DNA from: a virus
Taxonomy: Duplodnaviria > Heunggongvirae > Uroviricota > Caudoviricetes
Length of the DNA stretch: 64,000 nucleotides
Virus record (IMG/VR): IMGVR_UViG_3300033146_003879
Location: 118,990-182,989 of that record
Strand: one strand, 5' to 3'
The translations under genes and the position numbers were made by a program. Position 1 is the first letter of the stretch. Each line of letters opens with the position of its first letter. A model generated the notes under the pieces. It worked only from the letters and a program-made list of their open reading frames with translations. It did not search any database and was not told where the DNA came from. Positions 12,287 through 58,224 of the stretch are shown here, one piece after another.

Positions 12287-15200
12287 TTATGACCCCTTCT
12301 TGACTGTTGAATATATCTTAACATTACGCATGCGCTGTGTTATTACTACTTTTCCTGGGCGGACGGTGGTGCGTTCTTGGGAGGCGAACTCATCAGAGTT
12401 TTGTGCTGTTAACAGCCCGCTATTTACTGTGCACGCAAACTTATTTTCCGTGTCAGCGGAGTACATTATTGCGTCCTGTATTGTTGAGTAAGGAACTAGG
12501 TCAGCATCTGTATCGTGAAAATAGAGAGGTAGGTATCCTATCGATACCGTGATTGGCACTGATAGCCCTGGAATAGATCCAGCATCTGACCATTGTGTGT
12601 GGTCTGCTGCTGTGTCGCCTACTTTTATTGCAGCTCGTGTTATACCTGAGTAAGGTGCTGTAAAGTCATCTGACAAAACAGTAGGGTCGGTACCCAACAC
12701 TAAGCCGTGATCGTGTAGCACATCTACTAGATCATCGACTAGGTCTATTTCTAAGCTTATTCCTAATGATAGGTCAGCAAATGCATTTATTGGGGAGATC
12801 TCTATCTCGTGATCTAGGTTTAGTGGATCAGTTGCTGTGCTAGGGGTGTTGAGTTTTATGTCTACGGCGATCTGTTCGAACGTGAGTTCCCGCAAAACAC
12901 TATCCGACACAGCCATGGCTATTGTGTGTAGAGTTGCTTTCCCAGGGACAGGCGGTGTATACATGTCAGGGTTACTAACAAGCACATTGTTGTCTTCAAA
13001 CACAATGTCAGTTGCTGTTCTTGTGATTATGAGAGGTGATGACACATCAGGGTAGTAGGAGAGATCACTGAGTGTATCGTTCATGGTCATGGTTTCAAGG
13101 GTTGTTTCTCGGGTACCATCAACACTGGATATGGTAGGGTCAGCAAGCTGTAGTACGTGGAACTCTCCGCTACTATCCTGTACGGAGGCGTCGTACTGTT
13201 GTCTTATGAATGTTGCGCTGTAGTCTTTCGCCGCTTCTGCCAGAGGAGGGTAGGCTACTATATCTTTGTTCCTTCCGAGAGAATCATCTCTATCAGCAAC
13301 GTACTTGGTAAGTCCTAGGTCTAATACAGTCCTCTCGGTACCTTTATATAAGTTGGTTATGTCGACACGGGTCTCCCCTGCTGCGTATACACCCGGGGTG
13401 CTCCTTATTAAGGTTACTTTTTTTATGTAGTTTGCAGCATCTACGTTGAAATACTTACGGGAAACACCGGGGGATACCTCTGATACTGCGTATACAGGAA
13501 GTGTAATCATTGCGAATGGAAATACCTTTGTTTTGTTTGCAGTAGAAGTTGCCCCTGCGAGCTTTATTTTCGATAACAGCCCTAAACTTTGCGCAAAGGA
13601 ACCTGAACCTAGATCTGAATCTGGACTATCTATTTCACGATAATAAGTAGACATTCTATATTTTTCTGAAGTGGGGTTGGTGTCGGTATTAGGCACTGTG
13701 TTTAACTGTATTGGGTTAAATACAAAAGTGTCGGATGCGGAGGTGGGGTCAGTTGTAGCATCAGTCTTTGTGGCAATTATTGATGGGTTAAACAAAGCTA
13801 TGTGAGCTATGTCGTATTGGGGTGCGGATGTATAGGTTGCTGCCCTTGATGATTCTATTGCTGGGTAGAACTTCTCTGTTGTTGTTGTTGCTGTTATGTA
13901 ATCTCCGTAAGTCGTGCTTGTTAAGGACTCATATGAAATCCCGTACACAAGAGCTAGTATGTACTCAGCGGAGAACAGTACAGATCTGTTTTTCGCACAA
14001 TTACCTCTAGCGCTAGAACTGAGCTTCAGGTCAGTATAATAGTCAACATCTACTGTGAAGTTGTCCACCATCGCATCCGGTAATGATCTGTTTAATGTCC
14101 TCTTTAAGTAAGTTTGTACCAGAGATGTGCTGTAGGTTTTTCTTAAAAGTGTTCTGAATCTTGTGAATGTATCGATTGTTAGTGTGTCGTGCGCTGGAGG
14201 TGGGCTGTAGTCAGAAAGGCTCTCCAAGACGTGCTGTACGTTGATGTATGTGTCTATGTTTGTGGCGGCAGATGTGAATACAGTTCTCCGTAACAGTGAT
14301 GCCTCATTATATCTGCCAAATGCTCGCTGATCGTGGCCGTTGGTCCCATCCGATCCCGCTACAGCGGTAGTGTAAATAGAATTAACTGTAGCGTCAACCA
14401 CCAGGTCTCCTGCTTGTCCGCCGAGGCGTGCTCCGGATGATTTGTCGTTTATTGCTATTGTTGTAGCTTGCCCCATTGATAGATTGCTTAGGAGATCCGA
14501 TAAAACGACGTGCATTGACGCCTGAGGCTCGTGGGTTATAGATATTGTGTCTGATATATCTCCGAAATGTATGGAGTATCCTGTTGCGGTGTCTCCTGTG
14601 TGTTCTATTTTTGTTTCATTAACGCCGCCGTATATACGTTTTGTGGATCCCCCGAGAAATAAGTTCAGAGATGAGTATATTGACGAATACCCTGTAAACT
14701 GGTCTCCTACTAATCCATGTTCAGGGGACTCAAGTGCAGGTAGAGGTCTTCTCATAATCGCTTGTTGAGGGAGAGGGGTGAATGGAGGTAACCCTTCACC
14801 ACTATTGGTTGTTGTTATAGCTCCGTTCGTCCCTATTATTGTTCCACCAGATCTAAAGTTCCCTACATTAACGCCGGGATCTCTCACATTACCTATGTAT
14901 GTGCTGCGTTTTGTTGCTCCTAGTATGTCTGTCACAACATACGCTTTTGGTTCTGCCCCGTGGGCATTGGGAGTTATTATGTTTATGAAACCTGTTGGTA
15001 GTATTGCCCCGACATATACAGGTGTTGTTGGGCTAGGCGTCCCTAGTAACAAAGGGATGAGAGGCAGTGTGTATGTTGTTGGTGATATTCTTTTCCATCT
15101 ATCAACGTGTATATTGTTTAAGTCGCTCGCCAAATCCGTTACCTCAATAGAGAACCCAACAGCAGATACTGTCTCAGGGTTTATCAACAACTCGGTACGC

Positions 15201-17101
15201 TTAACTGAATCAGGGTACACAGAAGATCTTCTGTTTATCAGCTCATAAAGAGCGGTAAACATCTGATCAATATACACAAGACTATCTTTTCCTGGTATTG
15301 TTGTGGTAGCCTCGTCTTGTGGTACTACTGGCCCTAACATTGTTGGAAATAGGTCTTTGTATGGCGCCGATGGGGTACCTCCCCACTCCTCTATGGCGTC
15401 GTAGGTTACGTTTGATAAGCGGGTTGCACCACCCGAAAAGAAACTTCCTCCAGACCCCGTCGACATAACGATGCTCGTCTCCCCTGTATGGAGAAAGTAG
15501 TCGAGATAATCATCGAGGTTTATTACTGTTCCATCAAGGAATGTTATCTTTTTCTCAGTAACAGTAAACATAGGTAAGAATGTGTCCTTCATGTATGCTG
15601 TACCGTCGCCAGGGTCAGGTGCACCTGTGTTGTGGTACAGGTAAGGATTGTTCTTATGGGAAGGTTTGTAGATGTCCCAAACTGGTACTTTCAGGCTTGG
15701 GTCAAACGTAGGATCTAGTTCTGTTGTTCCAGGCGCCATATTTGCTATAGCGTGTCCTAGTGATGCTGGTATGAATGCAAATTGAGCACTGGATGATGAT
15801 CCGTTTAAGTATTCGAAGTTTGTGTTTCCGGTTGAGGTTACGGTAGGGGTGTCGAACATTGATTTTTGTACCCCTTCTCTAGCAACAACAAATCCATAAG
15901 TTCCTGTATTTATGAAGTTAGCGTCGTATTTGGGGTGACCGTTTATCTCAGTGCTTGTGAGTTCGCCTGACACATCCCCTCGAGAAAACAAGAAGGGGTG
16001 GTGTCTTCCGTACGTAGGAACATCACCGTCATCAAGAGGTAGTTGATCATCAAATGAAACAGGTCTACCCTCAAACACAGGAGGAAACGCCGATGCTCCA
16101 GGGATCTCTATTCGGACACTACGTGGTTTTATTGTGGCTATGTAAGGTTTTTCTTCTCGGTTCTTCATGAATGTCATGTTGAGAGGGGTGGTCAACAAGG
16201 TGGATGGTGGTACTACCTCAGGGAATATCTTAACGTGAAGCGGGAATAAACCGTCATTAAACGTGCGTGCTGACCCAGCTGTAACAGACCCTAGTGCAGA
16301 TAACAAGTCACCTACAGTCATACTTGCAATGTCACACACAATGCGAATTGTAGTATACCTCTTTTTATTGTCAATAAGAACAGGATCCTCAACAAACGTA
16401 CCGTGCTTGTCTGCCTCAGTATTGTGCTCAACGATAATCGAGATGTTGTGATGTACTGCGGTCGTAAATATATCAGGGTTAGCACCCCCCTCATCAACGT
16501 ACAACATAAGAACTGTTTCTGCGTCGAAAGGAGATGGTTCGTCAGGTGATAGAGGTATCGCATGGTAGTATTCACCGTAACCTCCGAGCCCGTAGTTAAG
16601 AATCAGGGTGTAAGCGTCAGCTGTGTCAATAGATCCTGAAGAGTCCCAGTTACTTGCTGCCGCAAATCGAACCGGAACATATTGTAAGAGACGGCTGCCA
16701 GGAACACTTGTTCCGATAACACCAGAAAGGTCTCCCGGTTTCCATACTCGGATATTCACATCGCGGTCTTTCTTGTAGTAAGGGCTTCCGTAGGTCGCTT
16801 CCGGTGGGGGAGGAACAGCCGCAGGATGTCCCACAGCAGTTGCGCTAGGTTCACTTTGAGCGCTCATATACAGTTGGATCTTATCGAGGAACAACCTATG
16901 CTCAAGGCTTGACACCTCACTTTGGTTAATCCCATGCATTAGGCTAACCATCCGAGAATAAGCAGAACTACCGTAGAGCTCCGATTGACGAACGGGGTCA
17001 CAGTCCTTGTAAAAAATACCGCTGTTCTTAATGTTGTTCTTTTTGTAATCGCGAGCCATGAGTCTCCTCCTTGTTGTCACATCGAAATTATAGTAGAACA
17101 A
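12287..17101 (-). CDS. giant structural protein (1604 aa)
   Basis: Uninterrupted 4.8-kb ORF. First gene of the minus-strand structural operon, downstream of an AT-rich divergent control region. Confidence 0.6.
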   Translation of the reverse strand: MFYYNFDVTTRRRLMARDYKKNNIKNSGIFYKDCDPVRQSELYGSSAYSRMVSLMHGINQSEVSSLEHRLFLDKIQLYMSAQSEPSATAVGHPAAVPPPPEATYGSPYYKKDRDVNIRVWKPGDLSGVIGTSVPGSRLLQYVPVRFAAASNWDSSGSIDTADAYTLILNYGLGGYGEYYHAIPLSPDEPSPFDAETVLMLYVDEGGANPDIFTTAVHHNISIIVEHNTEADKHGTFVEDPVLIDNKKRYTTIRIVCDIASMTVGDLLSALGSVTAGSARTFNDGLFPLHVKIFPEVVPPSTLLTTPLNMTFMKNREEKPYIATIKPRSVRIEIPGASAFPPVFEGRPVSFDDQLPLDDGDVPTYGRHHPFLFSRGDVSGELTSTEINGHPKYDANFINTGTYGFVVAREGVQKSMFDTPTVTSTGNTNFEYLNGSSSSAQFAFIPASLGHAIANMAPGTTELDPTFDPSLKVPVWDIYKPSHKNNPYLYHNTGAPDPGDGTAYMKDTFLPMFTVTEKKITFLDGTVINLDDYLDYFLHTGETSIVMSTGSGGSFFSGGATRLSNVTYDAIEEWGGTPSAPYKDLFPTMLGPVVPQDEATTTIPGKDSLVYIDQMFTALYELINRRSSVYPDSVKRTELLINPETVSAVGFSIEVTDLASDLNNIHVDRWKRISPTTYTLPLIPLLLGTPSPTTPVYVGAILPTGFINIITPNAHGAEPKAYVVTDILGATKRSTYIGNVRDPGVNVGNFRSGGTIIGTNGAITTTNSGEGLPPFTPLPQQAIMRRPLPALESPEHGLVGDQFTGYSSIYSSLNLFLGGSTKRIYGGVNETKIEHTGDTATGYSIHFGDISDTISITHEPQASMHVVLSDLLSNLSMGQATTIAINDKSSGARLGGQAGDLVVDATVNSIYTTAVAGSDGTNGHDQRAFGRYNEASLLRRTVFTSAATNIDTYINVQHVLESLSDYSPPPAHDTLTIDTFTRFRTLLRKTYSTSLVQTYLKRTLNRSLPDAMVDNFTVDVDYYTDLKLSSSARGNCAKNRSVLFSAEYILALVYGISYESLTSTTYGDYITATTTTEKFYPAIESSRAATYTSAPQYDIAHIALFNPSIIATKTDATTDPTSASDTFVFNPIQLNTVPNTDTNPTSEKYRMSTYYREIDSPDSDLGSGSFAQSLGLLSKIKLAGATSTANKTKVFPFAMITLPVYAVSEVSPGVSRKYFNVDAANYIKKVTLIRSTPGVYAAGETRVDITNLYKGTERTVLDLGLTKYVADRDDSLGRNKDIVAYPPLAEAAKDYSATFIRQQYDASVQDSSGEFHVLQLADPTISSVDGTRETTLETMTMNDTLSDLSYYPDVSSPLIITRTATDIVFEDNNVLVSNPDMYTPPVPGKATLHTIAMAVSDSVLRELTFEQIAVDIKLNTPSTATDPLNLDHEIEISPINAFADLSLGISLEIDLVDDLVDVLHDHGLVLGTDPTVLSDDFTAPYSGITRAAIKVGDTAADHTQWSDAGSIPGLSVPITVSIGYLPLYFHDTDADLVPYSTIQDAIMYSADTENKFACTVNSGLLTAQNSDEFASQERTTVRPGKVVITQRMRNVKIYSTVKKGS

Positions 17102-17294: not shown

Positions 17295-17570
17295 AGTCCC
17301 CAAATCAACGTAACTACCTGATAATACTACATGCACTTGGGGACTACTCGGGGACTTACTCTGATATTCGGGGACTTATTCCTCCTTTGCAAAGTAGCAT
17401 TAGTTGTATACTTTATTTAGTATCACAAGTGATACGTTAGGTTTACTGTAGTATACAATCCAAATAATTAAACGTCTTGTGTTCGTGTTTTTGTGTATTT
17501 CTGTGCAATGCTAGTCCCCAGATTTGCCGAGTAACTCCCCGGATCTTGGAATAACTCCCCAAATTTACCC
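17295..17570. promoter_or_regulatory. divergent control region with about 7 GGGGACT / AGTCCCC repeats
   Basis: agtcccca at 17295 and 17513, ggggact x3 at 17337-17385, actcccc at 17544 and 17564. Lies between the starts of 12287..17101 (-) and 17721..20115 (+). Confidence 0.45.
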
Positions 17571-17720
17571 TTCTGTTTTTCGCCACTTTATCCTCTTGTT
17601 TATTTTTGTGTGCGGCATTTTAATTAGACGCATATTTAATCAACAAATTATTTTTAATCAACCAGTACTTCCCCTTGTTATATACCCTATAATTAGAGTG
17701 ACGTTATTTTGGAGGCATAA

Positions 17721-20115
17721 AATGCATAATGTAAAACCGTATCAAGTTAGAAGACAAGCGGATGGTGAGCTCCACCCTGTAGCTATAACGGAGAGGCTAC
17801 TCGCTGTTCGTGACAAACAGTACTCAAGCCCTGTATTATTGCTTCGAGAACAACCCTACCTGCTTGATGGAACACCTACTGTTGCTGTGACACGTGTGTT
17901 AGCAGTGAGTTCACCACTAACAGAGGTTGCTCCTACGGCCGTTGTTCCTATAGAGTCCTTTGTTGTTAGTTACACAGAAGGCATTATATACCTGAACGAG
18001 TCTGAGGTCCCTACCGGAAGTGATGTAAGTGCTGCTTTATATATAGTAGAGTATAGTGGGCTAGGTACACTCGTCAGCACAAGAGATATTCTCAGCCGAG
18101 ACGCTGATGCGTCAAACGCGAGTGACACAAATAGTGCTCTCCAGCGCTTTAACGTAACAGATTCTTACAAACTGGACCCCTCATCATATACGGCGTCTGC
18201 ACAAACAACAGCAGACTCAGTCAATGATGTCTTCTCCTTCGTCCTCTCCGGGGTATATATAACTGTTGCGCGCAATTCTACGGTCTCGTTTATGGAGATG
18301 GATAGATCCACAGCAACACTGAACGCAGTAGCAATAACATCAGACGCGATACCTAATCTAGCAGCCTCAAACCCTGCAGATATATGCATCATATCAGAGT
18401 CTGCTACTGCAATACACGACGGGCTTGGCGGCTTACACTTATTTACCTTGTCAGGAACCTCTTCCGGGACAGCGCGCCGCCTCAAAGTAACATCATTTAA
18501 ACTAGGCTTTACTCCGATAAAACTTGCGGTATTATCACCAGGGAACGACTCTATTATTGTGACATATGTCATGGGTAACGGTACTGGTGCTTATTCCACA
18601 GGGTATTTGCGCTTAACATCCGGACTTATGTTGTTTGATCAAGTAAACATAGACATAAGTAGTCACATAGATACCGGGTTTATTGATATACTCAGTGTGT
18701 CCTCAATACAAGGACCAAACACAACATTTAGTATTTTACAGAGCACCGGAGGAACAACAGTAAGCGTGACGTCGCTGTACTTCAATAGTTATATTTACGA
18801 CGCTCCTGCAGGAGAAGTTATAAGAACAGGAACCCTACCATTTTCAGGGAACATGTACTCCTTCGCCGCCGGCTACGGACCCGACGGCTCTGTTGTAGTA
18901 GCAACGTTTGCCTCATTTACTATGGGACCAAATCTCTATACTACAGCAATACACCCAGATGGAGAGTGCACTACCCTAACCTTCCCGCTGATGCCGAACG
19001 AACAGATTGTGAGCACCACCCGATCACACGGACTCTACATAGGTGTTACTCGCTACCTCGACGGCTCGGATGTGCACTTAAGAACAGCGTTATTCGACTT
19101 TGCAAATTATGAGATAAGCCCCCCTTTAGACATAAATGCATCCGTCACAATCGGTCCGGTTGCACACAGAGAGAACCTTTCTGTATTTACCTATGAATAC
19201 GGAGGCTTTGCCCAAATTATTTACTACGACAACCGCACAGCGAGTAACACGAAGTACGTCCTTGACTATGCGCGGTTCGACACAAAAAGAGACGACTGCG
19301 TACATCCTGACGGACTGCTCCAATGGGAAGGCGACGTCATTAGTGACGAGACTTACATAGACGATACAACACCAGGAGTCCAACTTACTCTGCTAACAAC
19401 ATGTAAAGACACAGAGATTGAGGCAAATTCAGCAGGAACAATCGAGGCTACCGTAACAGGAAAACAAGATGTAACAGGGGACGTCGCGAGCTTCAGAGTT
19501 ACTGCAACTATTCATAATGATGGAATGGCAACAACTATTGTAGGGACCCCAACAACAACAGTACTCGCGAGCACGGCTGGTGCTACAGGCTGGGTAGCGC
19601 GCGCATACAATGCAGGAAACTATCTTATTATCTTTGTACATGCAGACGGCTCTACAAACAACGTACACTGGTCAGCAGAAGGGTTTGTTGTTAAAACAGA
19701 ACTACCTGCAGTTTACACACCAGGAAGCCTTGCTGTATGGGAAGGAGAGACGACAACAGATGAAACTTACGTCAACGATACGACACCAGGAACAAAGTTC
19801 ACATTAGTGCCGGCATCAACAGTAGATACACTAGCGAGTGGTGAGATTGCCAACGTATCAGCTGTAGTTACTGCCGCATCTGTTTCTGGTGAAGCTGCAA
19901 GCTTTAGAATAGAAGGGACTGTGCAGTATGACGGATCCACAACAATTCTTATAGGAACACCTACCGTGTCTGTTCTCGCAGCGTCTGCCGCCGCAGTTAC
20001 ATGGAGAGCACGTGTTTACTTCGATAGCAATCAGATCGTTATTTATGGACACGGGGACGGTAGTGGCGGCGACACTATTACTTGGAACGCCAAAGGTATT
20101 CTTATTAAGTTCTAA
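17721..20115 (+). CDS. tail-fibre / receptor-binding-like protein with internal ~130-aa domain duplication
   Basis: Start at ATG 17721 is preceded by ggagg. Two C-terminal repeats (TYIDDTTPG...WSAEGFVVK and TYVNDTTPG...WNAKGILIKF). Ser/Thr/Gly-rich composition typical of fibres. Confidence 0.5.
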
Positions 20116-20163: not shown

Positions 20164-20985
20164 TTAAGGTAGATGGTAATACACACCATCTACGTCTATG
20201 TCTATAAGGGCTTCAATTCGCCCTATAACCACTCCGGTCGCTACTGGACTATACGTAACAACCTCGTATGAGTCAGAATAATTGTAATCCAGAGATGTTA
20301 CGGTAAATGATAGATTATGCCTATCCCGCAGCATATCAACTGTCCTATCACCTAGTCGGGCTGGCATGCTCACGTTCGATTCTTTATTAAGTGTAAAGTA
20401 TAATGTAAGACTACTCATATCAGACACAACTGCGAAATACATAGTAAGTATGTAGCCGGAATAACGACCTACAAGCTCACACTCCATCACAGACCCGAGT
20501 AGTAGGTCACCGTCTTTCCTTAGAACCTCTTCACAAACAACATCTGTTATAGGCACGTCCGTGTCATCCGACTCCTCAGAATCATCAGCGACAGCGTCAT
20601 CATCAGCCGACTCCTCAGAATCAACAGTCTCATCGACACCACCAGCCGACTCATCAGAATCAACAGTCTCATCGACACCATCAGCCGACTCATCAGAATC
20701 AACAGTCTCATCGACACCATCAGCCGACTCATCAGAATCAACAGTCTCATCGACACCACCAGTAGCCTCCTCTGAGTCTACATCAGCAACTTCATCAGCA
20801 ACACAGATCGAGTCAATACACTCGAGCCTTGAATCACAGGTGTTATTATCGTAGCACTTTTCATGCCATCCTCCAACATCACCTGATCCTTTCGCCGCGT
20901 CTCCACCGCAGCTAACAACAAACATGTTCATCAAAACCACCAACAAAACCACCAACCACCCCTTTCTTCTTGTAACCTTAGTCAT
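20164..20985 (-). CDS. secreted lipoprotein with Cys-rich N-domain and acidic 13-aa tandem repeats (GVDETVDSDESAD x ~5)
   Basis: Start MTKVTRRKGWLVVLLVVLMNMFVVSCGG has GGAGG 7 nt upstream. Signal peptide plus lipobox VVSC. Repeats are visible in both protein and DNA. Confidence 0.65.
   Translation of the reverse strand: MTKVTRRKGWLVVLLVVLMNMFVVSCGGDAAKGSGDVGGWHEKCYDNNTCDSRLECIDSICVADEVADVDSEEATGGVDETVDSDESADGVDETVDSDESADGVDETVDSDESAGGVDETVDSEESADDDAVADDSEESDDTDVPITDVVCEEVLRKDGDLLLGSVMECELVGRYSGYILTMYFAVVSDMSSLTLYFTLNKESNVSMPARLGDRTVDMLRDRHNLSFTVTSLDYNYSDSYEVVTYSPVATGVVIGRIEALIDIDVDGVYYHLP
20569..20763. repeat. 5 x 39-bp tandem repeat inside the lipoprotein gene
   Basis: Unit ccgactcMtcagaatcaacagtctcatcgacaccaYcag repeated head-to-tail. 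Generates spurious shadow ORFs on both strands. Confidence 0.8.
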
Positions 20986-21225
20986 AACAACCTCCTGTTT
21001 TTTAACGTGGTTGTCTCCACATTGATATATACTACACAATAAAACCAGAAGTAATGGCTCAGACTACGCTTGCCTAGGCCTGTACGTAACTTCACGAGGT
21101 CTTTCTCCTCGCACACAGACATCTCAACACCTCCTCCTTTGTTGACATACCATACATATTCTTATACCTCAAAAACGCAGTTTTTATATCAAAAAAAGAA
21201 ACCCTGCAACTTAAGTAACAGGGTA

Positions 21226-21582
21226 TCATAACCCTCCATCTTGATTAATATTACGATGCCTAAGATCAATCCGAAAGCTCTTTTCAAATAACTTCGGGGG
21301 GAATACCAGCAGCGTACCATCTGTCCTACGTACTATATAGTCCCCTATGTTTGCTCCCGCATATGACTTGGCCCCATCCTGCATAAGCTGAGGCTTATTT
21401 GAGATAGGGCAAAGAACTATAGACAAATTCTTAATGTTTGTCCGTTTTGAGAACGCGTCGGCTTCCTCTTGGGTTTCTCCCCACCAGCGCTCAGCCATAA
21501 TTTCCTCTGCATGGGTTCCGGGACCCTTCTTGAACACATATCTATTCACAACACACCTCCTAGCGGTGGTATATTGTCGCAC
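21226..21582 (-). CDS. small protein, paralogue family A member 1
   Basis: Shares Y-x-[KR]...AAQW[LI]G[EN][TS]..AF and C-terminal GDY[VI]..G..[VI]F...F[EN][KR] motifs with three neighbouring ORFs. Confidence 0.5.
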   Translation of the reverse strand: MRQYTTARRCVVNRYVFKKGPGTHAEEIMAERWWGETQEEADAFSKRTNIKNLSIVLCPISNKPQLMQDGAKSYAGANIGDYIVRRTDGTLLVFPPKLFEKSFRIDLRHRNINQDGGL

Positions 21583-21902
21583 CTAAGATACACACCATAC
21601 CTACTATTAAAGAACTTCTCGGTAAACACCCTTATAACCCCCTTACCGTCGACAGCTATAAAGTTACCGTACTCGGCACTCCTAACTATTTTATCTTCAC
21701 CCGGTGTTACCACCACCTCCAGCTGTTGTGTGAAAGGATTTTCATCAAGAAATAGCCTACCTTGGAGTCCGTGTTCTTCCATGAACGCCTCCAGATCTTC
21801 CTTCGTATTACCTAACCACTGTGCTGCATAGAGTTCTTTGTCACACACCCTCCTATTATTGCTAAAGCCTGGAGGAGACCAACGTATTTTATACCTATCC
21901 AT
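21546..21902 (-). CDS. small protein, paralogue family A member 2
   Basis: LYAAQWLGNTKEDLEAF ... GNFIAVDGKGVIRVFTEKFFNSRY. Confidence 0.5.
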   Translation of the reverse strand: MDRYKIRWSPPGFSNNRRVCDKELYAAQWLGNTKEDLEAFMEEHGLQGRLFLDENPFTQQLEVVVTPGEDKIVRSAEYGNFIAVDGKGVIRVFTEKFFNSRYGVYLRCDNIPPLGGVL

Positions 21903-21944
21903 ATCTCACAACCCCCTTAGCAGTATACTGTTATTTATTAAGAA

Positions 21945-22493
21945 TCACCAATCAACATCATCGTCGTCCCAGCCATCATCATCGTCGTCCCAATCATCAT
22001 CATCGTCGTCCTCATCGTCCTCATCATCCTCATCCTCATCATACTCGCCAAGGAACTCCGCAGCTTCTTCATCATCACATGCGGCATAATCATACTTATT
22101 AGGATCTGATGCTGGGATATAGTCATCTCTCATGTTATCAACCCATATCTTTGGGAGCGATGGTTCGTAGGCACGCTCAAAGGGAATGCCTGGAATAATT
22201 AATATCTTTCCTGATTCACGCCTTACAACATAATCCCCTTGGCTAGCGTGTCTGAATGTCGCACCAAAACCCTCTTGCGTGAGCACCTTATTACCAGACC
22301 GGACACGAATAACCGTAAGCCCCTCAATTCCATGCTCCTCACCAAACACCTTAGCATAACACACGGTAGACCCGATCCAACACGCTGCGCGTATCCTTTC
22401 TGGTAAAGCCTTTCCTTCAGAGTCTGTTTTGTATCCGCTTTTCTTTAGTTTATACTCAATCACAACACCCTCCGCTACCCCATAGGTCCACAC
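21945..22493 (-). CDS. family A member 3 with a 60-aa poly-acidic, Trp-punctuated C-terminal tail
   Basis: Core matches family A (AACWIGS ... GDYVVRRESGKILIIPGIPFERAYE). Tail is EYDEDEDDEDDEDDDDDDWDDDDDGWDDDDVDW. Confidence 0.5.
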   Translation of the reverse strand: MWTYGVAEGVVIEYKLKKSGYKTDSEGKALPERIRAACWIGSTVCYAKVFGEEHGIEGLTVIRVRSGNKVLTQEGFGATFRHASQGDYVVRRESGKILIIPGIPFERAYEPSLPKIWVDNMRDDYIPASDPNKYDYAACDDEEAAEFLGEYDEDEDDEDDEDDDDDDWDDDDDGWDDDDVDW

Positions 22494-22912
22494 CCAACAG
22501 CTTTACCTGGAGTGCATAATTTCTCTCCTGGTACGAGGGCTTTTCTAGCTTCTTCCTCGCCCCCGAACGGAGTAAACCCGTGTATCAACAGGCGCATAAT
22601 TACCCCGTGGTTCTTTCTAATAGCAATCACACACATCACATTCTTATTGTGAGCGAGGATAGCTTGCTGAAGTGCTGACTCAACGTAATCTTCGCATGTT
22701 GTATTAGCAACACTCAGTAAGAGTGCGTCATGCACCCCTTGCAGTTCGCTTGTCCTCTGTTCCGTAGAAACGGCATCGACGGATATAACGAGCGCTACAA
22801 AGAACGCACTGCCAACCGCTGACCTGACAACAGCATCAGTCGTCTGTGCTGAGTGGGACTCGAGCACCAGAAACCCGATAATAAACAGAAATATCAGTAA
22901 TACAAAACTCAT
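22475..22912 (-). CDS. hypothetical protein with N-terminal signal/anchor
   Basis: Starts MSFVLLIFLFIIGFLVLES (hydrophobic). Confidence 0.4.
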   Translation of the reverse strand: MSFVLLIFLFIIGFLVLESHSAQTTDAVVRSAVGSAFFVALVISVDAVSTEQRTSELQGVHDALLLSVANTTCEDYVESALQQAILAHNKNVMCVIAIRKNHGVIMRLLIHGFTPFGGEEEARKALVPGEKLCTPGKAVGCGPMG

Positions 22913-22921
22913 GATCTCCTC

Positions 22922-23260
22922 CTAAATTAAACGCCCTTCTTGAGCAAGATTATTACCCACCAGCACAGGTTTTCTCACTTCTACATACTTCTTTTCGAAG
23001 ATATGCCTACTAAACACAGCTATACCGTTCTCCCAATCAAGAGCAACGTAATCACCCTGTTTTGCTACAGTAGATGCTATGAACGATCCTTTCAGTCTTA
23101 TGTGGTACACTTGTGAGTAATATGCTTTGTAGTATTTCAGCGCAGGTAACCCCTCTTTCTTTGCGAAAGCATCAGCATCAGCCTGGGACTCACCTAACCA
23201 CTGAGCCGCGTACAAAAAGCGCTCACCTATACCACGTCTCCGATACTTTTTCACAAACAA
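22922..23260 (-). CDS. small protein, paralogue family A member 4
   Basis: LYAAQWLGESQADADAF ... GDYVALDWENGIAVFSRHIFEKKY. Confidence 0.5.
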   Translation of the reverse strand: MFVKKYRRRGIGERFLYAAQWLGESQADADAFAKKEGLPALKYYKAYYSQVYHIRLKGSFIASTVAKQGDYVALDWENGIAVFSRHIFEKKYVEVRKPVLVGNNLAQEGRLI

Positions 23261-23735: not shown

Positions 23736-24101
23736 TTAGTCAAGTTGCTTGGTTGTGACGTATTCCCTAACTGTCTTAGGAGACCCAGACACACGTATCT
23801 CTATTTGCGTGAACTCACTATATTTGCGAGACAGTATATAATCAACCACTTTCTGATAACAACTTGAGCTACAGGCATTTAGCTTCAAGGTAGCCCTACC
23901 TTGCACGTCACCTTTATCAATACCGCGTATTTCTACAAAATCATCTCGAGCACCTGCGTGAATACCTATTGTCTTTTCACACCCATCGCACTTTATGTGA
24001 TCTGGTTGATATTCACGATGCGTGTAACTCTCCACGGAGCTATTATCATCCACACGCTTTACACTCACGCTGCGCATAACCTCTCTTGCAACAACACTCA
24101 T
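23736..24101 (-). CDS. hypothetical protein with CDGC...C..SSSC cysteines
   Basis: 121-aa ORF immediately 3' of the tmRNA. Confidence 0.4.
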   Translation of the reverse strand: MSVVAREVMRSVSVKRVDDNSSVESYTHREYQPDHIKCDGCEKTIGIHAGARDDFVEIRGIDKGDVQGRATLKLNACSSSCYQKVVDYILSRKYSEFTQIEIRVSGSPKTVREYVTTKQLD

Positions 24102-24158
24102 GATGTAACCTCCTTAACGAATTTTAATTATTATCATATCACACCTGCTACTAAAAAT

Positions 24159-24499
24159 TGGTGGAGGCGGCGGGAATCGAACCCGCGTCCTAAAAACCTT
24201 CAAGATAGATACTACATGTTTAGTCCGTCTTTACTAAAATCTTCGGCGCCAACGGACAGGCCCCTCGAAGTTTCCTACGCTAAAGTTTTCGTGGCATCTC
24301 CCACATAGAAAGGATCAACCCTTAGTCTCACAGTTGTGCGCCCCAATTGGTGTCGTGAGCACCCCTCCAATAGGACGGCAGCTTATGCTGCTATGAGTTC
24401 AGTTTTTGCGTCTCTGAACGTGCCGCTTTTTACGAGGCCCGCGGCGCCTCGACATGCATCTATTCTCTCCGCGAATCCAGTCGAAACCAGGTCGCCCCC
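24159..24499 (-). ncRNA. ssrA: tmRNA (ssrA-like), about 341 nt, phage-encoded
   Basis: Minus strand reads 5' GGGGGCGACCUGGUUUCGACUGGAUUCG ... GGACGCGGGUUCGAUUCCCGCCGCCUCCACCA 3'. The 7-bp acceptor stem (GGGGGCG / CGCCUCC) carries a G3.U pair. T-arm GCGGG-UUCGAUU-CCCGC with terminal CCA. Internal putative tag frame ends ...ACU GAA CUC AUA GCA GCA UAA (TELIAA*). Confidence 0.8.
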
Positions 24500-24502
24500 A
24501 TA

Positions 24503-24907
24503 TTACAAACTACACTCCTTAACAATATGTTCTGTTCTCAAAGTGTCCTCAAACAACATAGAATGATAATACATCCTATGCCAACCGACCCAGGTAATGC
24601 TGTATGCATAGCAATACGCATGCTGGGAACGGAAATCAATAGATCCGTCAAAGATAGCGCTAACAGGAACTATCTCACCAGCGTATTCGATGATTCTCTC
24701 AGGCAGCAACAGGTAGCGCCCTCGCGCATACATCTTACCAAACGAGGTGAGCGCCTCCACATCTATTCTGTGGACCTTCCCCACTACCCCAATAACGGTA
24801 CCGACAAGGCCTTCATTAACAAGCTTACGCAAATAGGTCTCGCCCTTTATGCGCATATATTCGCGCAAGCTACCGTCAACTCTGTCACCATACATAGATC
24901 TAGCCAC
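24503..24907 (-). CDS. small protein, paralogue family B member 1 (probable GTG start)
   Basis: KIDVEALTSFGKMYARGRYLLLP motif shared with B2 and B3. Leader AGGGGG + 6 nt + GTG is conserved with B2. Confidence 0.45.
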   Translation of the reverse strand: MARSMYGDRVDGSLREYMRIKGETYLRKLVNEGLVGTVIGVVGKVHRIDVEALTSFGKMYARGRYLLLPERIIEYAGEIVPVSAIFDGSIDFRSQHAYCYAYSITWVGWHRMYYHSMLFEDTLRTEHIVKECSL

Positions 24908-24917
24908 AACGCACCCC

Positions 24918-25274
24918 CTAAACACTACCTATATTATCAACAGTTAAGCTATCAGTAAACAATAGAGGGCTAAGTATGATACCGCCTTCCGATATTCGGT
25001 AACCATCTACCATACCGTATGAAGACCTAAAGTCCGTGGCTAGCATAGGGCACACCTCCGCCTCTACCACCATACCTGCATTAGATATCATATCACAAGG
25101 CATCAACAAGAACTTGTTTCTACTAAACATCTTTCCGAATGTCTTAAGCATATTTATCCTTATTTTATATAAACCAGAGGGAGACCTTGTATCATTCACC
25201 CTTGAGTAAATCCCCTCATATATCATTCTCCCAAGGAACTCTGAACTCTGGACACGAAGTACTTTTGTCCGCAC
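24918..25274 (-). CDS. small protein, paralogue family B member 2 (GTG start)
   Basis: KIRINMLKTFGKMFSRNKFLLMP. About 65 bp of conserved upstream sequence shared with B1 (minus-strand TTTACT-17-TAATAT promoter-like). Confidence 0.45.
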   Translation of the reverse strand: MRTKVLRVQSSEFLGRMIYEGIYSRVNDTRSPSGLYKIRINMLKTFGKMFSRNKFLLMPCDMISNAGMVVEAEVCPMLATDFRSSYGMVDGYRISEGGIILSPLLFTDSLTVDNIGSV

Positions 25275-25413
25275 GCCACACCCCCTAAACGTTACCTATA
25301 TTACCAACAGTTAGGTTATCAGTAAACAATAAAGGGTTAAGTATAACACCATCACCCATAACCTTAGCGCCTATACCGCCAACAGAAACCCCAAGCCCTG
25401 TAACTACTTACAG

Positions 25414-25429
25414 TATCTTATACCACAAT
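25414..25429 (-). promoter_or_regulatory. recurrent promoter-like motif, copy 2
   Basis: cttataccacaat. Minus strand reads TGTGGTATAAG. Confidence 0.4.
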
Positions 25430-25668
25430 AGCAGCTCGTTAAATGTCACTGTCTGCAATATTGTTCACCATAAAACCAGTTGTAAATAGTGTAGGTTGGT
25501 AATGCAACGCATCATGCGTGCCGTCATTTACTAGGTCCCTAGGAATACCTTACTTTATATATGCACAGTAATCTCACCGCCTCTTACCATATAGCACTCT
25601 CCAATAAACGCCCCTCCCGAAGGAGAGGCAACACTATAAGCAGCGAGCTGCGCCCGCTTCCTAATACT

Positions 25669-26058
25669 TTAGATACCACCTAGATTATCCCCCAAGAGAC
25701 TATCGCGGAATAGTAATTGACTAAGACCGAATCCTCCATCCCGCAGTTGATACCCGACAGCATATCCTTTACTAGCGAAGTAATCGCACAACCAAGACTC
25801 ACTCGCCTTTACGTAGACAAGTCTATCAGCCATATCGAATAACTCTAAAGGAAGGACCAGGTAGTACTTCCTTCTATATAGCGGACCGAACGACATAAGC
25901 TTACCTACATCAATCTTATAGGCCTCACCTTCTCTTCCGTATGACCTAGCGACACTTCCTTCTTTAACCATTGTATCCAAAAAACCCCTACTCTGGGCAC
26001 GTACTACTCTTATAGCCACTCTACTTTCCCAATCAAACGGTCTCAGAATCTCACTCAC
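25669..26058 (-). CDS. small protein, paralogue family B member 3 (GTG start after GGAGGG)
   Basis: KIDVGKLMSFGPLYRRKYYLVLP. Confidence 0.45.
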   Translation of the reverse strand: MSEILRPFDWESRVAIRVVRAQSRGFLDTMVKEGSVARSYGREGEAYKIDVGKLMSFGPLYRRKYYLVLPLELFDMADRLVYVKASESWLCDYFASKGYAVGYQLRDGGFGLSQLLFRDSLLGDNLGGI

Positions 26059-26070
26059 AGCACCCTCCAC

Positions 26071-26094: not shown

Positions 26095-26215
26095 TAACAC
26101 CACAACATTTACGAGCAGTGGCCGTTACCGCCACCCCCACTGTCTCCAGAACAATGGCCGTTACGGCCTTCATCCAAACGGCGAACAATTCGCCTCAATA
26201 GCCTTGTCCACATGC

Positions 26216-29992: not shown

Positions 29993-30367
29993 TTACTGAT
30001 TCTTAATGTATGTCTTGATGACTTCGAGCGGTGCGCCGCCAGAAGACGTAACGTAATAAGACGGGGACCATAATTTCTTGTGCCGTCTTAATTCCGGGTA
30101 TAAAGCTCTGAGCTTTTTGCTTGTTGGCCCCTTAACTGCCTGCACTATAGAGGAGATTGACTCTGTCGAAGGGTATTCAATAAGGAGGTGGACGTGATCT
30201 AAATCGCCGTTACATTCCTCAAGCGTGATCCCCTTCTTCTTGAACGCCTGTCTTGCATAATATGCGAAGTCTCCAAGTATTCTCGGAGAAAGCACCTTTC
30301 TCCTATACTTCGTTACCAATACGAGGTGTGCATGCAAGCTGCTTATGTTTGTTCTTGACTTCCTCAT
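29993..30367 (-). CDS. tnpA: IS200/IS605 Y1 (HUH) transposase TnpA
   Basis: LHAHLVLVTKYRRKVL ... DHVHLLIEYP (HuH) ... LWSPSYYVTS (catalytic Tyr). Confidence 0.85.
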   Translation of the reverse strand: MRKSRTNISSLHAHLVLVTKYRRKVLSPRILGDFAYYARQAFKKKGITLEECNGDLDHVHLLIEYPSTESISSIVQAVKGPTSKKLRALYPELRRHKKLWSPSYYVTSSGGAPLEVIKTYIKNQ

Positions 30368-30389
30368 AACCCTAAGTATACTCTTTTGT

Positions 30390-31508
30390 ATGAAAGTGTC
30401 AAGAGCATATAAATACCGCCTTTACCCTACGCGAGAACAAGAGATTAAGTTGTCTCAGTTCGTTGGAAACAATAGATATCTCTGGAACTTCGTTCTATCC
30501 GCTCTCGAAGGCAAGAAGTGGGACCGATTCGCTGTTTCCAAACAACTTCCTTCACTTAAGTCTGAAATACCATTCCTTAAAGAATCTCCGTCTCAAGCGT
30601 TTCAACAATTGTTAATTGATATGGATGCTGCATTTAAGAGCTTCTTTCGGAAGAAACACGGATATCCGAAGTTTAAGAAACGCGGTATGCACGACTCTTT
30701 TAGAATACCGGTTGTGAAGTCCCCTGAATCTATAAACAAGAATAGCTGCGTCTGGATACCAAAATTGGGTTTTGTGGAACTGCGTTTGTCGCGTGAGGTG
30801 AGAGGAGAAGCGAAGTCTATCACTGTGTCTCGGAGAGCGGGAAAATGGTTTGTCTCAATATTGACGAAAAGCGAGATGCAGGAAACAGGCGGAAAGACAG
30901 GAAATAGTGTAGGAATTGATCTCGGCGTTAAACACTTCGCGACAACGTCGGGCGGAAAGCATATACATGCTCCAGAGGAAAGAGTGCGCTATTTAGAGAA
31001 GAGAATAGAGCGCATGCAGAGGAAAGTCAGTAGAGCGAAGAAAGGATCAAGCAACAGAAGCAAGTTGCGTCTTAAATTAAGTAGACTCCACTTAACTCTC
31101 GCGAATGTGAAAGAAGACTTCTTGCACAAGGTGAGCACACAGTTAATCAAGAACCACGATTTACTTGTGCTCGAAGACCTTGGTGTAAAGGAGATGACAG
31201 AAGCAGGAGCGAGAAAAGCGAAGTTAAATAGAGCAATCTTGCGTCAAGGTTGGTATAAATTTAGGACTTTACTTGAGTATAAGAGTATGTGGTATGGCTG
31301 TGCCGTAGTGTTCGTCCCGCCTCAATTCACGAGTCAGCGCTGTAGCGAATGCGGGAATATAAACGCAGCAAACAGAAAGACACAATCGTCATTTAAATGC
31401 CTTTCGTGTGGCCATACTGAAAACGCTGATATAAACGCAGCTAAGAACATTTTCACCGTCGGGCAGACGGGTAGAGCCTTTGGAGACGCCGCGCTAGCGG
31501 GTCGATGA
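30390..31508 (+). CDS. tnpB: TnpB (OrfB, RuvC-like, RNA-guided nuclease family)
   Basis: N-terminus KVSRAYKYRLYPTREQ, GIDLGVKHFATTSGG (RuvC-I), C-terminal zinc finger CSECG...CLSCGH, DINAAKNI. Confidence 0.85.
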   Translation: MKVSRAYKYRLYPTREQEIKLSQFVGNNRYLWNFVLSALEGKKWDRFAVSKQLPSLKSEIPFLKESPSQAFQQLLIDMDAAFKSFFRKKHGYPKFKKRGMHDSFRIPVVKSPESINKNSCVWIPKLGFVELRLSREVRGEAKSITVSRRAGKWFVSILTKSEMQETGGKTGNSVGIDLGVKHFATTSGGKHIHAPEERVRYLEKRIERMQRKVSRAKKGSSNRSKLRLKLSRLHLTLANVKEDFLHKVSTQLIKNHDLLVLEDLGVKEMTEAGARKAKLNRAILRQGWYKFRTLLEYKSMWYGCAVVFVPPQFTSQRCSECGNINAANRKTQSSFKCLSCGHTENADINAAKNIFTVGQTGRAFGDAALAGR

Positions 31509-39401: not shown

Positions 39402-39635
39402 TTAAGATTCCTTTTCTCCCTCATCTACCTCACCAACGGCGCGATCACTCTTTTTATAGGCCTCACCAGACTTACAATCTTTTGTAAGTTCAATAAATGC
39501 GGTATACGCATCGAGTATACGTATTTTCTCATCGATAATATTGTATCTATTCCGGATATACCCTCTGATCACCATACTAAGCACGGCTACCAGTAATATA
39601 CCTAGCCCAAGACCTGTTGCAATAACACTACTCAT
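39402..39635 (-). CDS. small membrane protein (about 78 aa; the long ORF is trimmed to avoid overlapping the upstream gene)
   Basis: MSSVIATGLGLGILLVAVLSMVI. Confidence 0.35.
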   Translation of the reverse strand: MSSVIATGLGLGILLVAVLSMVIRGYIRNRYNIIDEKIRILDAYTAFIELTKDCKSGEAYKKSDRAVGEVDEGEKES

Positions 39636-58130: not shown

Positions 58131-58224
58131 AGCAATCTCCTTATAGTGTTTTATTAAAATAACACAGCCCAAAAAAACTGACGCACGGCATTTAGCTGTG
58201 CGTCATAGGTACTGTTTTACAATT

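What the first reader, a model, noticed from the sequence alone, without database searches (positions are those of the whole stretch)
24159..24499. Phage-encoded tmRNA with complete 5' and 3' ends and the G3.U alanine identity pair
Both halves of the tRNA-like domain are present (GGGGGCG... / ...CGCCUCCACCA with a G.U at position 3), together with a T-arm. The internal frame ends TELIAA-UAA. Because the 5' end is present and no integrase lies nearby, this is a functional gene rather than an attP remnant of integration into the host ssrA. The tag sequence is atypical: the resume codon is ambiguous (GCA giving AKTELIAA, or GGC giving GTFRDAKTELIAA). The gene sits in the middle of the accessory paralogue arrays.
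Basis: partly seen in the sequence, partly recalled or inferred. Interest (0 to 1): 0.55.

Follow-up and report, generated by a model that had tools for sequence, protein, structure and literature searches.

The report
Complete tmRNA gene on phage-like contig
The window carries a genuine, full-length ribosome-rescue RNA (tmRNA) gene on what is most likely a large, very novel phage; phage tmRNAs are already known, so this is a well-preserved new example with an unusual short tag, not a new kind of thing.

Summary
ARAGORN and Rfam both place a complete one-piece tmRNA at exactly 24159-24499, on the minus strand (RF00023, 173.6 bits, E = 5.7e-69, full model, not truncated). It has a G3.U acceptor stem, an encoded ACCA, a canonical T-arm, helix 2, PK1, PK2, PK4 and a tag frame; PK3 is unclear. 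The resume codon is not ambiguous. It is GCA (RNA 91-93), giving AKTELIAA. The alternative GGC lies inside PK1. The gene is not an att remnant: both halves are present, no second copy of either end exists in 64 kb, and I found no integrase. An IS200/IS605 element lies 5.5 kb away. The gene starts 3 nt after the stop codon of an upstream ORF and sits between two paralogue arrays unique to this 183-kb contig. Phage origin is probable but not proven, because the window holds no capsid or terminase gene. No close tmRNA relative turned up (67% identity or less), so donor and host are unknown. Full-length phage tmRNAs are already known (Bxz1-like mycobacteriophages, phage G, huge phages, IMG/VR contigs). 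Verdict: a new member of a known kind, of modest interest.

The parts
24159..24499 (-). Complete one-piece tmRNA (ssrA) gene, 341 nt
   Evidence: ARAGORN; Rfam RF00023 173.6 bits, E = 5.7e-69, model 1-374/374, not truncated
24493..24499 (-). Acceptor stem, 5' strand (RNA 1-7, GGGGGCG), with G3 of the G3.U alanine identity pair
   Evidence: Read from sequence; pairs with RNA 331-337
24159..24169 (-). Acceptor stem, 3' strand (RNA 331-337, CGCCUCC), then discriminator A and encoded CCA (338-341)
   Evidence: Read from sequence; unique in the window with up to 3 mismatches
24170..24186 (-). T-arm (RNA 314-330): stem GCGGG/CCCGC, T-loop UUCGAUU
   Evidence: Rfam alignment; sequence
24452..24463 (-). 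Helix 2, 5' strand (RNA 37-48), pairing with RNA 281-295 (window 24205-24219)
   Evidence: Complementarity search: 37-44/288-295 and 42-48/281-287; Rfam alignment
24422..24451 (-). Pseudoknot PK1 (RNA 49-78): stem 1 CGAGGC/GCCUCG (49-54/62-67), stem 2 GCCGC/GCGGC (55-59/74-78)
   Evidence: one loop base different from the PK1 of Spirochaetales MAG tmRNA L148
24383..24409 (-). Tag reading frame GCA AAA ACU GAA CUC AUA GCA GCA UAA = AKTELIAA* (RNA 91-117), preceded by GAGAC with A at -4
   Evidence: ARAGORN; sequence; A at -4 in 156 of 156 other tmRNAs; role of A86 in E. coli (PMC2481249)
24378..24391 (-). Helix 5 (RNA 109-122): GCAGC/GCUGC with the UAA stop codon in the loop
24327..24377 (-). 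Pseudoknot PK2 (RNA 123-173): 123-133/150-161 and 141-146/168-173
24285..24326 (-). PK3 region (RNA 174-215): only short competing stems, no clean pseudoknot
   Evidence: poorly aligned in the Rfam match
24223..24270 (-). Pseudoknot PK4 (RNA 230-277): CUUCG/CGAAG (230-234/255-259) and GUCCGUU/GACGGAC (243-249/271-277)
   Evidence: Rfam alignment
24503..24925 (-). Context: upstream co-oriented ORF (140 aa, paralogue family B); its stop codon ends 3 nt before tmRNA G1
   Evidence: the family occurs only on this contig
24918..26070 (-). Context: two more family-B paralogues (24918-25274 and 25669-26070), 27-34% identical to each other and to the first
23736..24101 (-). Context: downstream co-oriented ORF (121 aa, Cys-rich); AAGGAGG Shine-Dalgarno, and ATG 57 nt after the CCA end
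21226..23260 (-). Context: paralogue family A (22922-23260, 21945-22493, 21546-21902, 21226-21582)
   Evidence: blastp E = 1e-4 to 1e-11 between members

Best explanation
This is an intact, one-piece tmRNA (ssrA) gene carried by a large (183-kb contig), very novel, phage-like element. It sits inside a long leftward gene run, 3 nt after the stop codon of the preceding ORF and 57 nt before the next ORF. It has no convincing promoter or terminator of its own. Inferred steps: it is most likely co-transcribed with its neighbours and cut out like a phage tRNA, by RNase P at G1 and by trimming to the encoded CCA. The host alanyl-tRNA synthetase then charges it through the G3.U pair. Host SmpB and EF-Tu deliver it to ribosomes stalled on broken mRNAs; the window encodes no smpB. 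Translation resumes at GCA-91 and adds (A)AKTELIAA before stopping at UAA. The likely benefit is extra ribosome-rescue capacity during infection, when mRNA decay or abortive-infection nucleases strand ribosomes. The hydrophobic-Ala-Ala end plausibly still marks the tagged products for proteolysis. Shown here: the gene, its completeness, its architecture, its reading frame and its context. Inferred: expression, processing, charging, trans-translation and the benefit to the phage.
For: Identity and completeness. Functional elements are all present: G3.U, discriminator A and CCA, the T-loop, helix 2, PK1, helix 5 with the stop codon in its loop, PK2 and PK4. A at -4 before GCA-91 matches 156 of 156 other tmRNAs and the E. 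coli A86 frame determinant (PMC2481249). The Rfam score lies within the bacterial range of 137.6-231.7 bits and above five other phage-borne tmRNAs at 67.6-141.3 bits. Not an att remnant. Operon embedding. Phage-like element: the proteins map to a single 182,989-bp contig. It carries an NAD-dependent ligase, RNA ligase, T4-type RNase H, MazZ-like diphosphohydrolase, HNH nucleases, GroES and a divergent sigma factor. The RNase H-like and DUF5662 proteins are 44-60% identical to proteins of large Bacillus-group phages and 48% to one in a 735-kb huge phage. The RNA ligase is 45% identical to that of crAss-like phages. The conserved 621-aa protein has a fold match to an uncultured Caudovirales protein at E = 1.6e-8. 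I found no cellular housekeeping genes. Precedent: phage tmRNAs in Bxz1-like phages and phage G (PMC4131195), in huge phages together with SmpB (PMC7162821), and 25 full-length tmRNAs among 44 IMG/VR loci. One of these, L224, is similarly wedged between co-oriented ORFs.
Against: No capsid, portal or terminase gene was found in the window, so the viral nature rests on gene content. No related element carries this locus: family B exists only on this contig, and the relatives' contigs are short and lack tmRNAs. Conservation and covariation under selection therefore could not be tested. PK3 has no clean fold. The window has no smpB and no tRNA genes. The promoter-like and terminator-like sites do not exceed chance. 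The tag is atypical: among 137 distinct tmRNAs, 4 have 8 residues, 2 end in IAA and 1 starts with AK. Recognition by proteases is therefore uncertain.
Confidence: 0.72

Rival explanations
1. It is an intact but selectively neutral passenger: a bacterial ssrA captured fairly recently by the element and not yet decayed, with no role in the phage life cycle.
For: Its Rfam score (173.6 bits) is bacterial-like and higher than that of five other phage-borne tmRNAs, as expected for a young acquisition. No related element carries it, so there is no evidence of retention. It lies in a region of fast-evolving, contig-specific paralogues.
Against: No bacterial or metagenomic tmRNA found exceeds 67% identity, and the central 160 nt has no detectable relative. 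That argues against a very recent capture from a sampled lineage. Every functional element remains intact despite this divergence. The gene is packed tightly into an operon with no flanking host DNA.
Confidence: 0.15
2. The window is bacterial: the tmRNA is the host's own ssrA, or the junction of an island or prophage integrated into ssrA.
For: The tmRNA is very canonical. The 3' 76 nt resemble enterobacterial ssrA and att fragments at about 80%. ssrA is a classic integration site (PMC12595487).
Against: No integrase was found and no direct repeat of the 3' end. Both flanks carry the same kind of ORFan and paralogue content. In 64 kb I recognised no ribosomal, metabolic or other housekeeping gene and no smpB, but did find many phage-type enzymes. 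The gene abuts an ORF stop codon by 3 nt, inside a co-oriented operon.
Confidence: 0.05
3. The RNA acts mainly as a manipulator rather than a helper. It might compete with host tmRNA for SmpB and replace the host degron with a different tag, changing the fate of rescued proteins. Or the gene might serve as a decoy or landing site for ssrA-targeting integrative elements.
For: A molecule comprising only the tRNA-like domain, as in phage DS6A, has been shown to inhibit tmRNA, perhaps by titrating SmpB (PMC4131195). The tag is short and differs from the common AN...ALAA type over its N-terminal part. Islands that integrate next to tmRNA can be moved by jumbo phages (PMC12595487).
Against: The complete mRNA-like domain, with correct frame-setting signals and a hydrophobic-Ala-Ala end, points to ordinary tagging. 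Nothing in the window suggests an integrated island or an att site. No phage-encoded adaptor or protease was recognised.
Confidence: 0.08

Closest known systems
Bacterial one-piece tmRNA (SsrA, Rfam RF00023), e.g. E. coli SsrA
   Same: Full architecture: G3.U acceptor stem with ACCA, T-arm, helix 2, PK1, a resume codon GCA preceded by A at -4, a stop codon in the helix 5 loop, PK2 and PK4. The PK1 3' half, GGCCUCGUAAAAAGC, is the same as in Alteromonadales, Verrucomicrobiales and Spirochaetales tmRNAs.
   Different: It is carried on a phage-like element inside a protein-coding operon, with no smpB nearby. It is compact at 341 nt, against a median of 356 in my sample. The tag AKTELIAA was not found by pattern scans of IMG/VR or of the JGI metagenome collection; the genome collection was not scanned for it. 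Global identity to every tmRNA collected is 67% or less.
Bacillus phage G tmRNA (gp553; PMC4131195, PMC12484599)
   Same: A full-length tmRNA on a very large phage, among genes of unknown function, with a tag that begins AK (AKLNITNNELQVA). The window also shares an RNase H-like protein with phage G at 46% identity.
   Different: Phage G's copy lies in a tRNA cluster, is 309 nt long, scores only 67.6 bits against RF00023, and its tag does not end in Ala-Ala. No sequence similarity exists beyond the tRNA-like domain.
tmRNAs of huge phages (Al-Shayeb et al. 2020, PMC7162821) and of IMG/VR viral contigs (L219, L224, L230 on 184-253 kb contigs; L228 on an 11.5-kb contig)
   Same: Full-length tmRNAs on viral contigs, three of them 184-253 kb. 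They are compact (330-345 nt), have an identical 3' half of the tRNA-like domain, and carry unusual tags (ANNNNYFEQRLAA, ATPVRLAA, ANDNVRLAA). In L224 the gene is wedged between co-oriented ORFs.
   Different: They score 131-141 bits against 173.6 here, several lie next to tRNA genes, and identity to the window copy is 59-64% with no shared central region.
Mycobacteriophage Bxz1-cluster tmRNAs, and the tRNA-like-domain-only molecule of phage DS6A (PMC4131195)
   Same: tmRNA genes on lytic phage genomes without an integration role.
   Different: Different host phylum. I did not compare the sequences. DS6A lacks the mRNA-like domain that is complete here.
ssrA 3'-end attP or att fragments of temperate phages (e.g. 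CP-1639, Klebsiella prophage-derived phages)
   Same: About 80% identity over the last 76 nt.
   Different: In my search those records matched only the last 76 nt of this tmRNA; that they are integration-site fragments is general knowledge, which I did not verify. Here the whole gene is present, I found no integrase, and there is no repeat of the 3' end.

Membership tests
One-piece tmRNA (SsrA, RF00023) | Full-length match to the covariance model above the curated gathering score | tested here: met
   173.6 bits against a gathering score of 47, model 1-374/374, not truncated. This is within the 137.6-231.7 bits of 20 environmental tmRNAs.
One-piece tmRNA (SsrA, RF00023) | tRNA-like domain: a 7-bp acceptor stem with a G3.U70-equivalent pair, discriminator A, 3' CCA, and a T-arm with a GUUCRANUC-type loop | tested here: met
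   G1-C337 through G7-C331 with G3.U335; A338-CCA encoded; T-stem 314-318/326-330 with loop UUCGAUU.
One-piece tmRNA (SsrA, RF00023) | Helix 2 linking the tRNA-like domain to PK1, and PK1 just upstream of the tag frame | tested here: met
   Helix 2 at 37-48/281-295. PK1 at 49-54/62-67 and 55-59/74-78. A 12-nt spacer leads to the resume codon.
One-piece tmRNA (SsrA, RF00023) | mRNA-like domain: a resume codon (usually GCN) with A at -4, a short ORF ending in hydrophobic-Ala-Ala, and a stop codon in the helix 5 loop | tested here: met
   GAGAC|GCA, tag AKTELIAA, UAA at 115-117 in the loop of GCAGC/GCUGC. A at -4 in 156 of 156 comparators.
One-piece tmRNA (SsrA, RF00023) | Three downstream pseudoknots, PK2 to PK4 | tested here: inconclusive
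   PK2 and PK4 have clear crossing stems. The PK3 region (174-215) shows only short competing stems. From general knowledge, PK2-PK4 tolerate replacement in E. coli, so this is not disqualifying.
One-piece tmRNA (SsrA, RF00023) | Alanylation by AlaRS, SmpB binding, and trans-translation activity | not testable with these tools
   This needs biochemistry or genetics. The window encodes no smpB.
Two-piece (permuted) tmRNA | The 3' acceptor half is encoded upstream of the 5' half | tested here: not met
   The RF00023 match is colinear over 1-374, and no permuted-model hit appeared in the window.
Phage-encoded full-length tmRNA (as opposed to an ssrA att fragment) | The 5' half and the mRNA-like domain are present, not just the 3' end | tested here: met
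Phage-encoded full-length tmRNA (as opposed to an ssrA att fragment) | No adjacent integrase and no direct repeat of the 3' end marking an integration junction | tested here: met
   The 32-nt and 18-nt 3'-end probes are unique with up to 3 mismatches. No flanking repeats. No integrase family appeared among the scanned ORFs. The only transposition genes are IS200/IS605 TnpA and TnpB at 29993-31508.
Phage-encoded full-length tmRNA (as opposed to an ssrA att fragment) | The carrier is a virus, with capsid, portal, terminase or tail genes | tested here: inconclusive
   No hallmark gene was found in the 64-kb window. My candidate capsid protein turned out to be a sigma-like factor. Support is indirect: phage-type enzymes with best matches in phages, a Caudovirales fold match for the 621-aa protein, the 183-kb contig size, and no housekeeping genes recognised.

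The most novel reading that the evidence does not exclude
The phage maintains its own highly canonical tmRNA with a shortened, re-written tag (AKTELIAA). It would serve as a counter-defence or takeover device. It would rescue ribosomes stranded by host abortive-infection RNases or by phage-induced mRNA decay, perhaps together with the nearby RNA ligase. It would also give rescued products a degron that lacks the adaptor-binding N-terminal part of host tags, so their fate differs from host-tagged proteins.
Probability: 0.15. Interest if true: 0.6.

Novelty: new member of a known kind. Interest (0 to 1): 0.3.

Why it matters
Phage-borne tmRNAs have been catalogued, in Bxz1-like mycobacteriophages, phage G and huge phages, but in the papers I read their function was predicted or hypothesised and not tested. 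This copy is a clean candidate for such a test. It is structurally the most canonical of the phage copies I compared. It has an unambiguous reading frame and a unique 8-residue tag that would be easy to follow by mass spectrometry. It sits without tRNA genes or smpB in an operon of lineage-specific small proteins. It also flags a 183-kb, deeply novel phage-like lineage whose large proteins have no detectable relatives in current phage databases.

Tried and rejected
1. Head-module idea. I guessed that the minus-strand run of 1604, 169, 621, 194, 316 and 384 aa was a portal, scaffold and capsid block. This is rejected for the 384-aa protein: AlphaFold predicts it all-helical, and its best Foldseek matches are all sigma factors. 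The 621-aa protein has no PDB match and only one match to an uncharacterised Caudovirales protein.

2. Alternative resume codon GGC, giving GTFRDAKTELIAA. Rejected, because it lies inside PK1 stem 2 and does not align with the resume codons of other tmRNAs.

3. att remnant or integration junction. Rejected.

4. Close relatives of the tmRNA. The exact and codon-degenerate tag patterns found nothing in IMG/VR or the JGI metagenomes. The helix-2/T-arm pattern found nothing in IMG/VR. It found more than 120 metagenome loci, all at 64% identity or less. The PK1 pattern hit 69 genome loci, all at 67% or less.

5. Spirochaetales as donor. Two MAG tmRNAs rank first and share PK1. However, region-wise identity is not distinctive, and the shared helix 5/PK2 junction motif also occurs in unrelated tmRNAs. 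I treat this as a weak lead only.

6. Syntenic loci, to test conservation. Family B exists only on this contig. The relatives' contigs (L001-L003, L193-L199) are short and carry no tRNA or tmRNA.

7. Source contig. Exact look-ups failed, so the rest of the 183-kb contig could not be read.

8. The giant ORFs (1585, 1604 and 863 aa). No hit in Pfam, PHROGs, PDB sequences or GenBank phages.

9. The jumbo-phage genomic-island paper (PMC12595487). It concerns islands inserted next to the host tmRNA, not phage-encoded tmRNA.

Full report
**Observation**

ARAGORN finds exactly one RNA gene in the 64-kb window. It is a tmRNA at 24159-24499 on the minus strand, with tag AKTELIAA*. Rfam's covariance model RF00023 matches the same coordinates at 173.6 bits (gathering score 47), E = 5.7e-69. 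The match covers model positions 1-374 of 374 and is not truncated. No other Rfam family reaches threshold in the window.

The sequence shows the acceptor stem G1-C337, G2-C336, G3.U335, G4-C334, G5-C333, C6-G332 and G7-C331. Discriminator A338 and an encoded CCA follow. The T-arm has stem 314-318/326-330 and loop UUCGAUU. The only omission was the strand.

**Anatomy**

A complementarity search, together with the Rfam alignment, gives these elements in RNA positions:
- Helix 2: 37-48 pairing with 281-295.
- PK1: CGAGGC/GCCUCG (49-54/62-67) and GCCGC/GCGGC (55-59/74-78).
- Tag frame: GCA AAA ACU GAA CUC AUA GCA GCA UAA (91-117).
- Helix 5: GCAGC/GCUGC (109-113/118-122), with the stop codon in its loop.
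- PK2: 123-133/150-161 and 141-146/168-173.
- PK4: 230-234/255-259 and 243-249/271-277.
- PK3 region (174-215): only short competing stems, so it is reduced or unclear.

The score of 173.6 bits lies within the 137.6-231.7 bits of 20 bona fide environmental tmRNAs. It is higher than five other phage-borne tmRNAs: phage G at 67.6 bits and four IMG/VR contigs at 131-141 bits.

**Resume codon**

It is not.
- GGC at 76-78 lies inside the 3' strand of PK1.
- GCA-91 is ARAGORN's call. It aligns with the resume codon of the Rfam consensus and of Shewanella, Moritella and Spirochaetales tmRNAs.
- It is preceded by G-A-G-A-C, which places A at -4. All 156 tmRNAs I collected have A at -4. In E. coli that base (A86) is the main frame determinant, and U85G is tolerated (PMC2481249).

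The tag is therefore (A)AKTELIAA. Among 137 distinct comparison tmRNAs, 8-residue tags (4), IAA endings (2) and AK starts (1) are rare but do occur. The tag is unusual but within the natural range, and it keeps the hydrophobic-Ala-Ala end.

**Not an att remnant**

- Both halves of the tRNA-like domain and the whole mRNA-like domain are present.
- The 32-nt and 18-nt 3'-end probes occur only once in the window, even with 3 mismatches.
- No att-like repeat flanks the gene.
- No integrase family appeared among the ORFs scanned with Pfam and PHROGs.
- The nearest transposition genes are a complete IS200/IS605 element, TnpA at 29993-30367(-) and TnpB at 30345-31508(+), 5.5 kb away.

**Context**

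The tmRNA starts 3 nt after the stop codon of ORF 24503-24925. It ends 57 nt before the ATG of ORF 23736-24101, which has an AAGGAGG Shine-Dalgarno sequence. All of these lie on the minus strand. Promoter-like and terminator-like sites around the gene do not exceed shuffled expectation. Co-transcription followed by tRNA-like processing is therefore the simplest reading, though it is inferred.

The 'paralogue arrays' are real:
- Family B (24503-24925, 24918-25274, 25669-26070) lies upstream.
- Family A (22922-23260, 21945-22493, 21546-21902, 21226-21582) lies downstream.

Family B occurs only on this contig among 5.8 billion proteins.

**What the element is**

Window proteins map to a single JGI contig of 182,989 bp. 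I could not retrieve that contig. Most ORFs have no Pfam or PHROG family.

The recognisable genes are phage-typical:
- NAD-dependent DNA ligase, RNA ligase and a T4-type RNase H.
- A MazZ-like dATP/dGTP diphosphohydrolase domain.
- HNH and GmrSD nucleases, and an EcoRI-type methyltransferase.
- Radical SAM, GroES, a RyR domain and DUF5662.

Their closest matches in GenBank phages are:
- RNase H-like: 44-49% identity to large Bacillus, Enterococcus and Alicyclobacillus phages, including phage G.
- DUF5662: 52-60% to Bacillus and Lysinibacillus phages, and 48% to a 735-kb uncultured phage.
- RNA ligase: 45% to crAss-like phages.
- NAD-dependent ligase: 37-41% to phages of Gram-negative hosts.

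The conserved 621-aa protein (AlphaFold mean pLDDT 72.7) has no PDB match. It does have one significant match to an uncultured Caudovirales protein, at E = 1.6e-8.

My guess that the 384-aa ORF was the capsid protein was wrong. It is a divergent sigma-70-like factor. The 1585-, 1604- and 863-aa ORFs are rich in threonine and serine and match nothing.

I recognised no housekeeping gene, no smpB and no tRNA gene. I conclude the element is probably a large, deeply novel phage, at roughly 85%. The window itself holds no structural hallmark.

**Relatives of the tmRNA**

- The tag, searched exactly and with degenerate codons, is absent from IMG/VR and the JGI metagenomes.
- A helix-2/T-arm pattern found more than 120 metagenome tmRNAs, all at 64% identity or less. 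Similarity is confined to RNA 1-80 and 240-341.
- A PK1 pattern found 69 species genomes: Alteromonadales, Verrucomicrobiales and Lentisphaerae, and two Spirochaetales MAGs. The best are the Spirochaetales copies at 66.5-66.7%. Region-wise identity is not distinctive, however.
- In IMG/VR, 44 contigs carry the identical 3' half of the tRNA-like domain, and 25 of those have full-length tmRNAs. Some sit on contigs of 184-253 kb, are compact (330-345 nt) and have odd tags. All are 64% identical or less.
- Phage G's tmRNA (L244:27061-27369) shares only the tRNA-like domain.

Donor and host therefore remain unknown. These searches were limited by the patterns I chose, so closer tmRNAs may exist.

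**Comparison with what is known**

Full-length phage tmRNAs have been reported in:
- eight Bxz1-like mycobacteriophages and Bacillus phage G, with a tRNA-like-domain-only version in DS6A (PMC4131195);
- huge phages, together with SmpB (PMC7162821);
- phage G again, in a recent re-analysis (PMC12484599).

This gene meets every sequence-testable criterion of the one-piece tmRNA family except a clean PK3. Activity cannot be tested here. It is a new member of a known kind. It stands out for being more canonical than the other phage copies compared, for its unique short tag, and for standing alone, without tRNA genes, inside an operon of lineage-specific paralogues.

**Mechanism and confidence**

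The most likely mechanism (about 0.7) is that the RNA is co-transcribed and then processed by RNase P and 3' trimming. Host AlaRS charges it, and host SmpB and EF-Tu deliver it to stalled ribosomes. Those ribosomes add (A)AKTELIAA and terminate. This would raise ribosome-rescue capacity during infection.

Rival readings:
- A neutral recent passenger (0.15).
- A manipulator or decoy role (0.08).
- A bacterial ssrA or an integration junction (0.05).

Interest is modest at 0.3, because the class is known and nothing here contradicts expectation.

Noticed in passing
window 29993-31508: A complete IS200/IS605-type element: TnpA (Y1 transposase, PF01797, E = 4e-34) on the minus strand, overlapping head-to-head with TnpB (OrfB_IS605 plus Cas12f1-like TNB domain) on the plus strand. 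It interrupts the otherwise minus-strand gene run.
   Followed up: partly
window 7178-8332 (-): A 384-aa ORF with no Pfam or PHROG hit is a very divergent sigma-70-like factor. AlphaFold predicts it all-helical (pLDDT 64), and its top Foldseek PDB matches are all sigma factors. It is conserved with synteny in the short related contigs L002 and L193 (in L001 the homologous gene is cut off by the contig end).
   Followed up: yes
window 4-4761 (+), 12287-17101 (-), 17524-20115 (+): Three very large ORFs (1585, 1604 and 863 aa), rich in threonine and serine, with no match in Pfam, PHROGs, PDB sequences or 50,697 GenBank phage records. They may be virion or fibre proteins of an undescribed lineage.
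   Followed up: partly
window 9929-11794 (-): A 621-aa protein conserved at 58% identity in L001 (and about 40% in L193 and L195) and remotely in 26 representative clusters. It always sits in ORFan-dense modules, in several relatives beside a very large protein. It has no PDB fold match and one BFVD match to an uncultured Caudovirales protein (E = 1.6e-8).
   Followed up: yes
window 58225-60427 (-): An EcoRI-type adenine methyltransferase (PF13651, E = 2e-127) directly follows a GmrSD_N plus HNH endonuclease ORF. This may be a restriction-modification-like or anti-restriction pair on the element.
   Followed up: no
window 57834-58172 (-), 63526-63900 (-), 63063-63572 (-), 39628-40122 (-): A GroES/Cpn10 homologue, a RyR-domain protein, a DUF5662 protein (52-60% identical to Bacillus and Lysinibacillus phage proteins) and a MazZ-like dATP/dGTP diphosphohydrolase N-terminal domain.
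   Followed up: partly
window 24905-24983 and 25272-25350; gap 25275-25668: A 79-nt direct repeat (85% identity) spanning the start/stop junction between family-B genes: the first copy covers the 3' end of ORF 24918-25274 and the 5' end of ORF 24503-24925. The 394-nt ORF-free gap between two paralogues may hold a decayed fourth copy.
   Followed up: no
window 20164-21039 (-): A lipoprotein-like 291-aa ORF with four tandem acidic repeats (GVDETVDSDESAD).
   Followed up: no
window 26113-26168: Two copies of a GC-rich palindromic motif (GGCCGTTAC(C/G)GCC), 36 nt apart, in the intergenic space between the radical-SAM gene and the first family-B gene. They may mark a transcript boundary or a regulatory site upstream of the run that contains the tmRNA.
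   Followed up: no
loci L205, L216, L225, L234, L239, L242 (IMG/VR): In several viral-contig tmRNAs that share the same T-arm and acceptor end, the 3' half lies upstream of the 5' half, so they are permuted two-piece tmRNAs. L219 also hit the Rfam permuted-tmRNA model.
   Followed up: no
window 23901-24308 (+), 24336-24566 (+): Plus-strand ORFs of 135 and 76 aa overlap the tmRNA and are artefacts. Their only 'homologues' are translated tmRNA genes of bacteria. A naive gene caller would mis-annotate them.
   Followed up: yes
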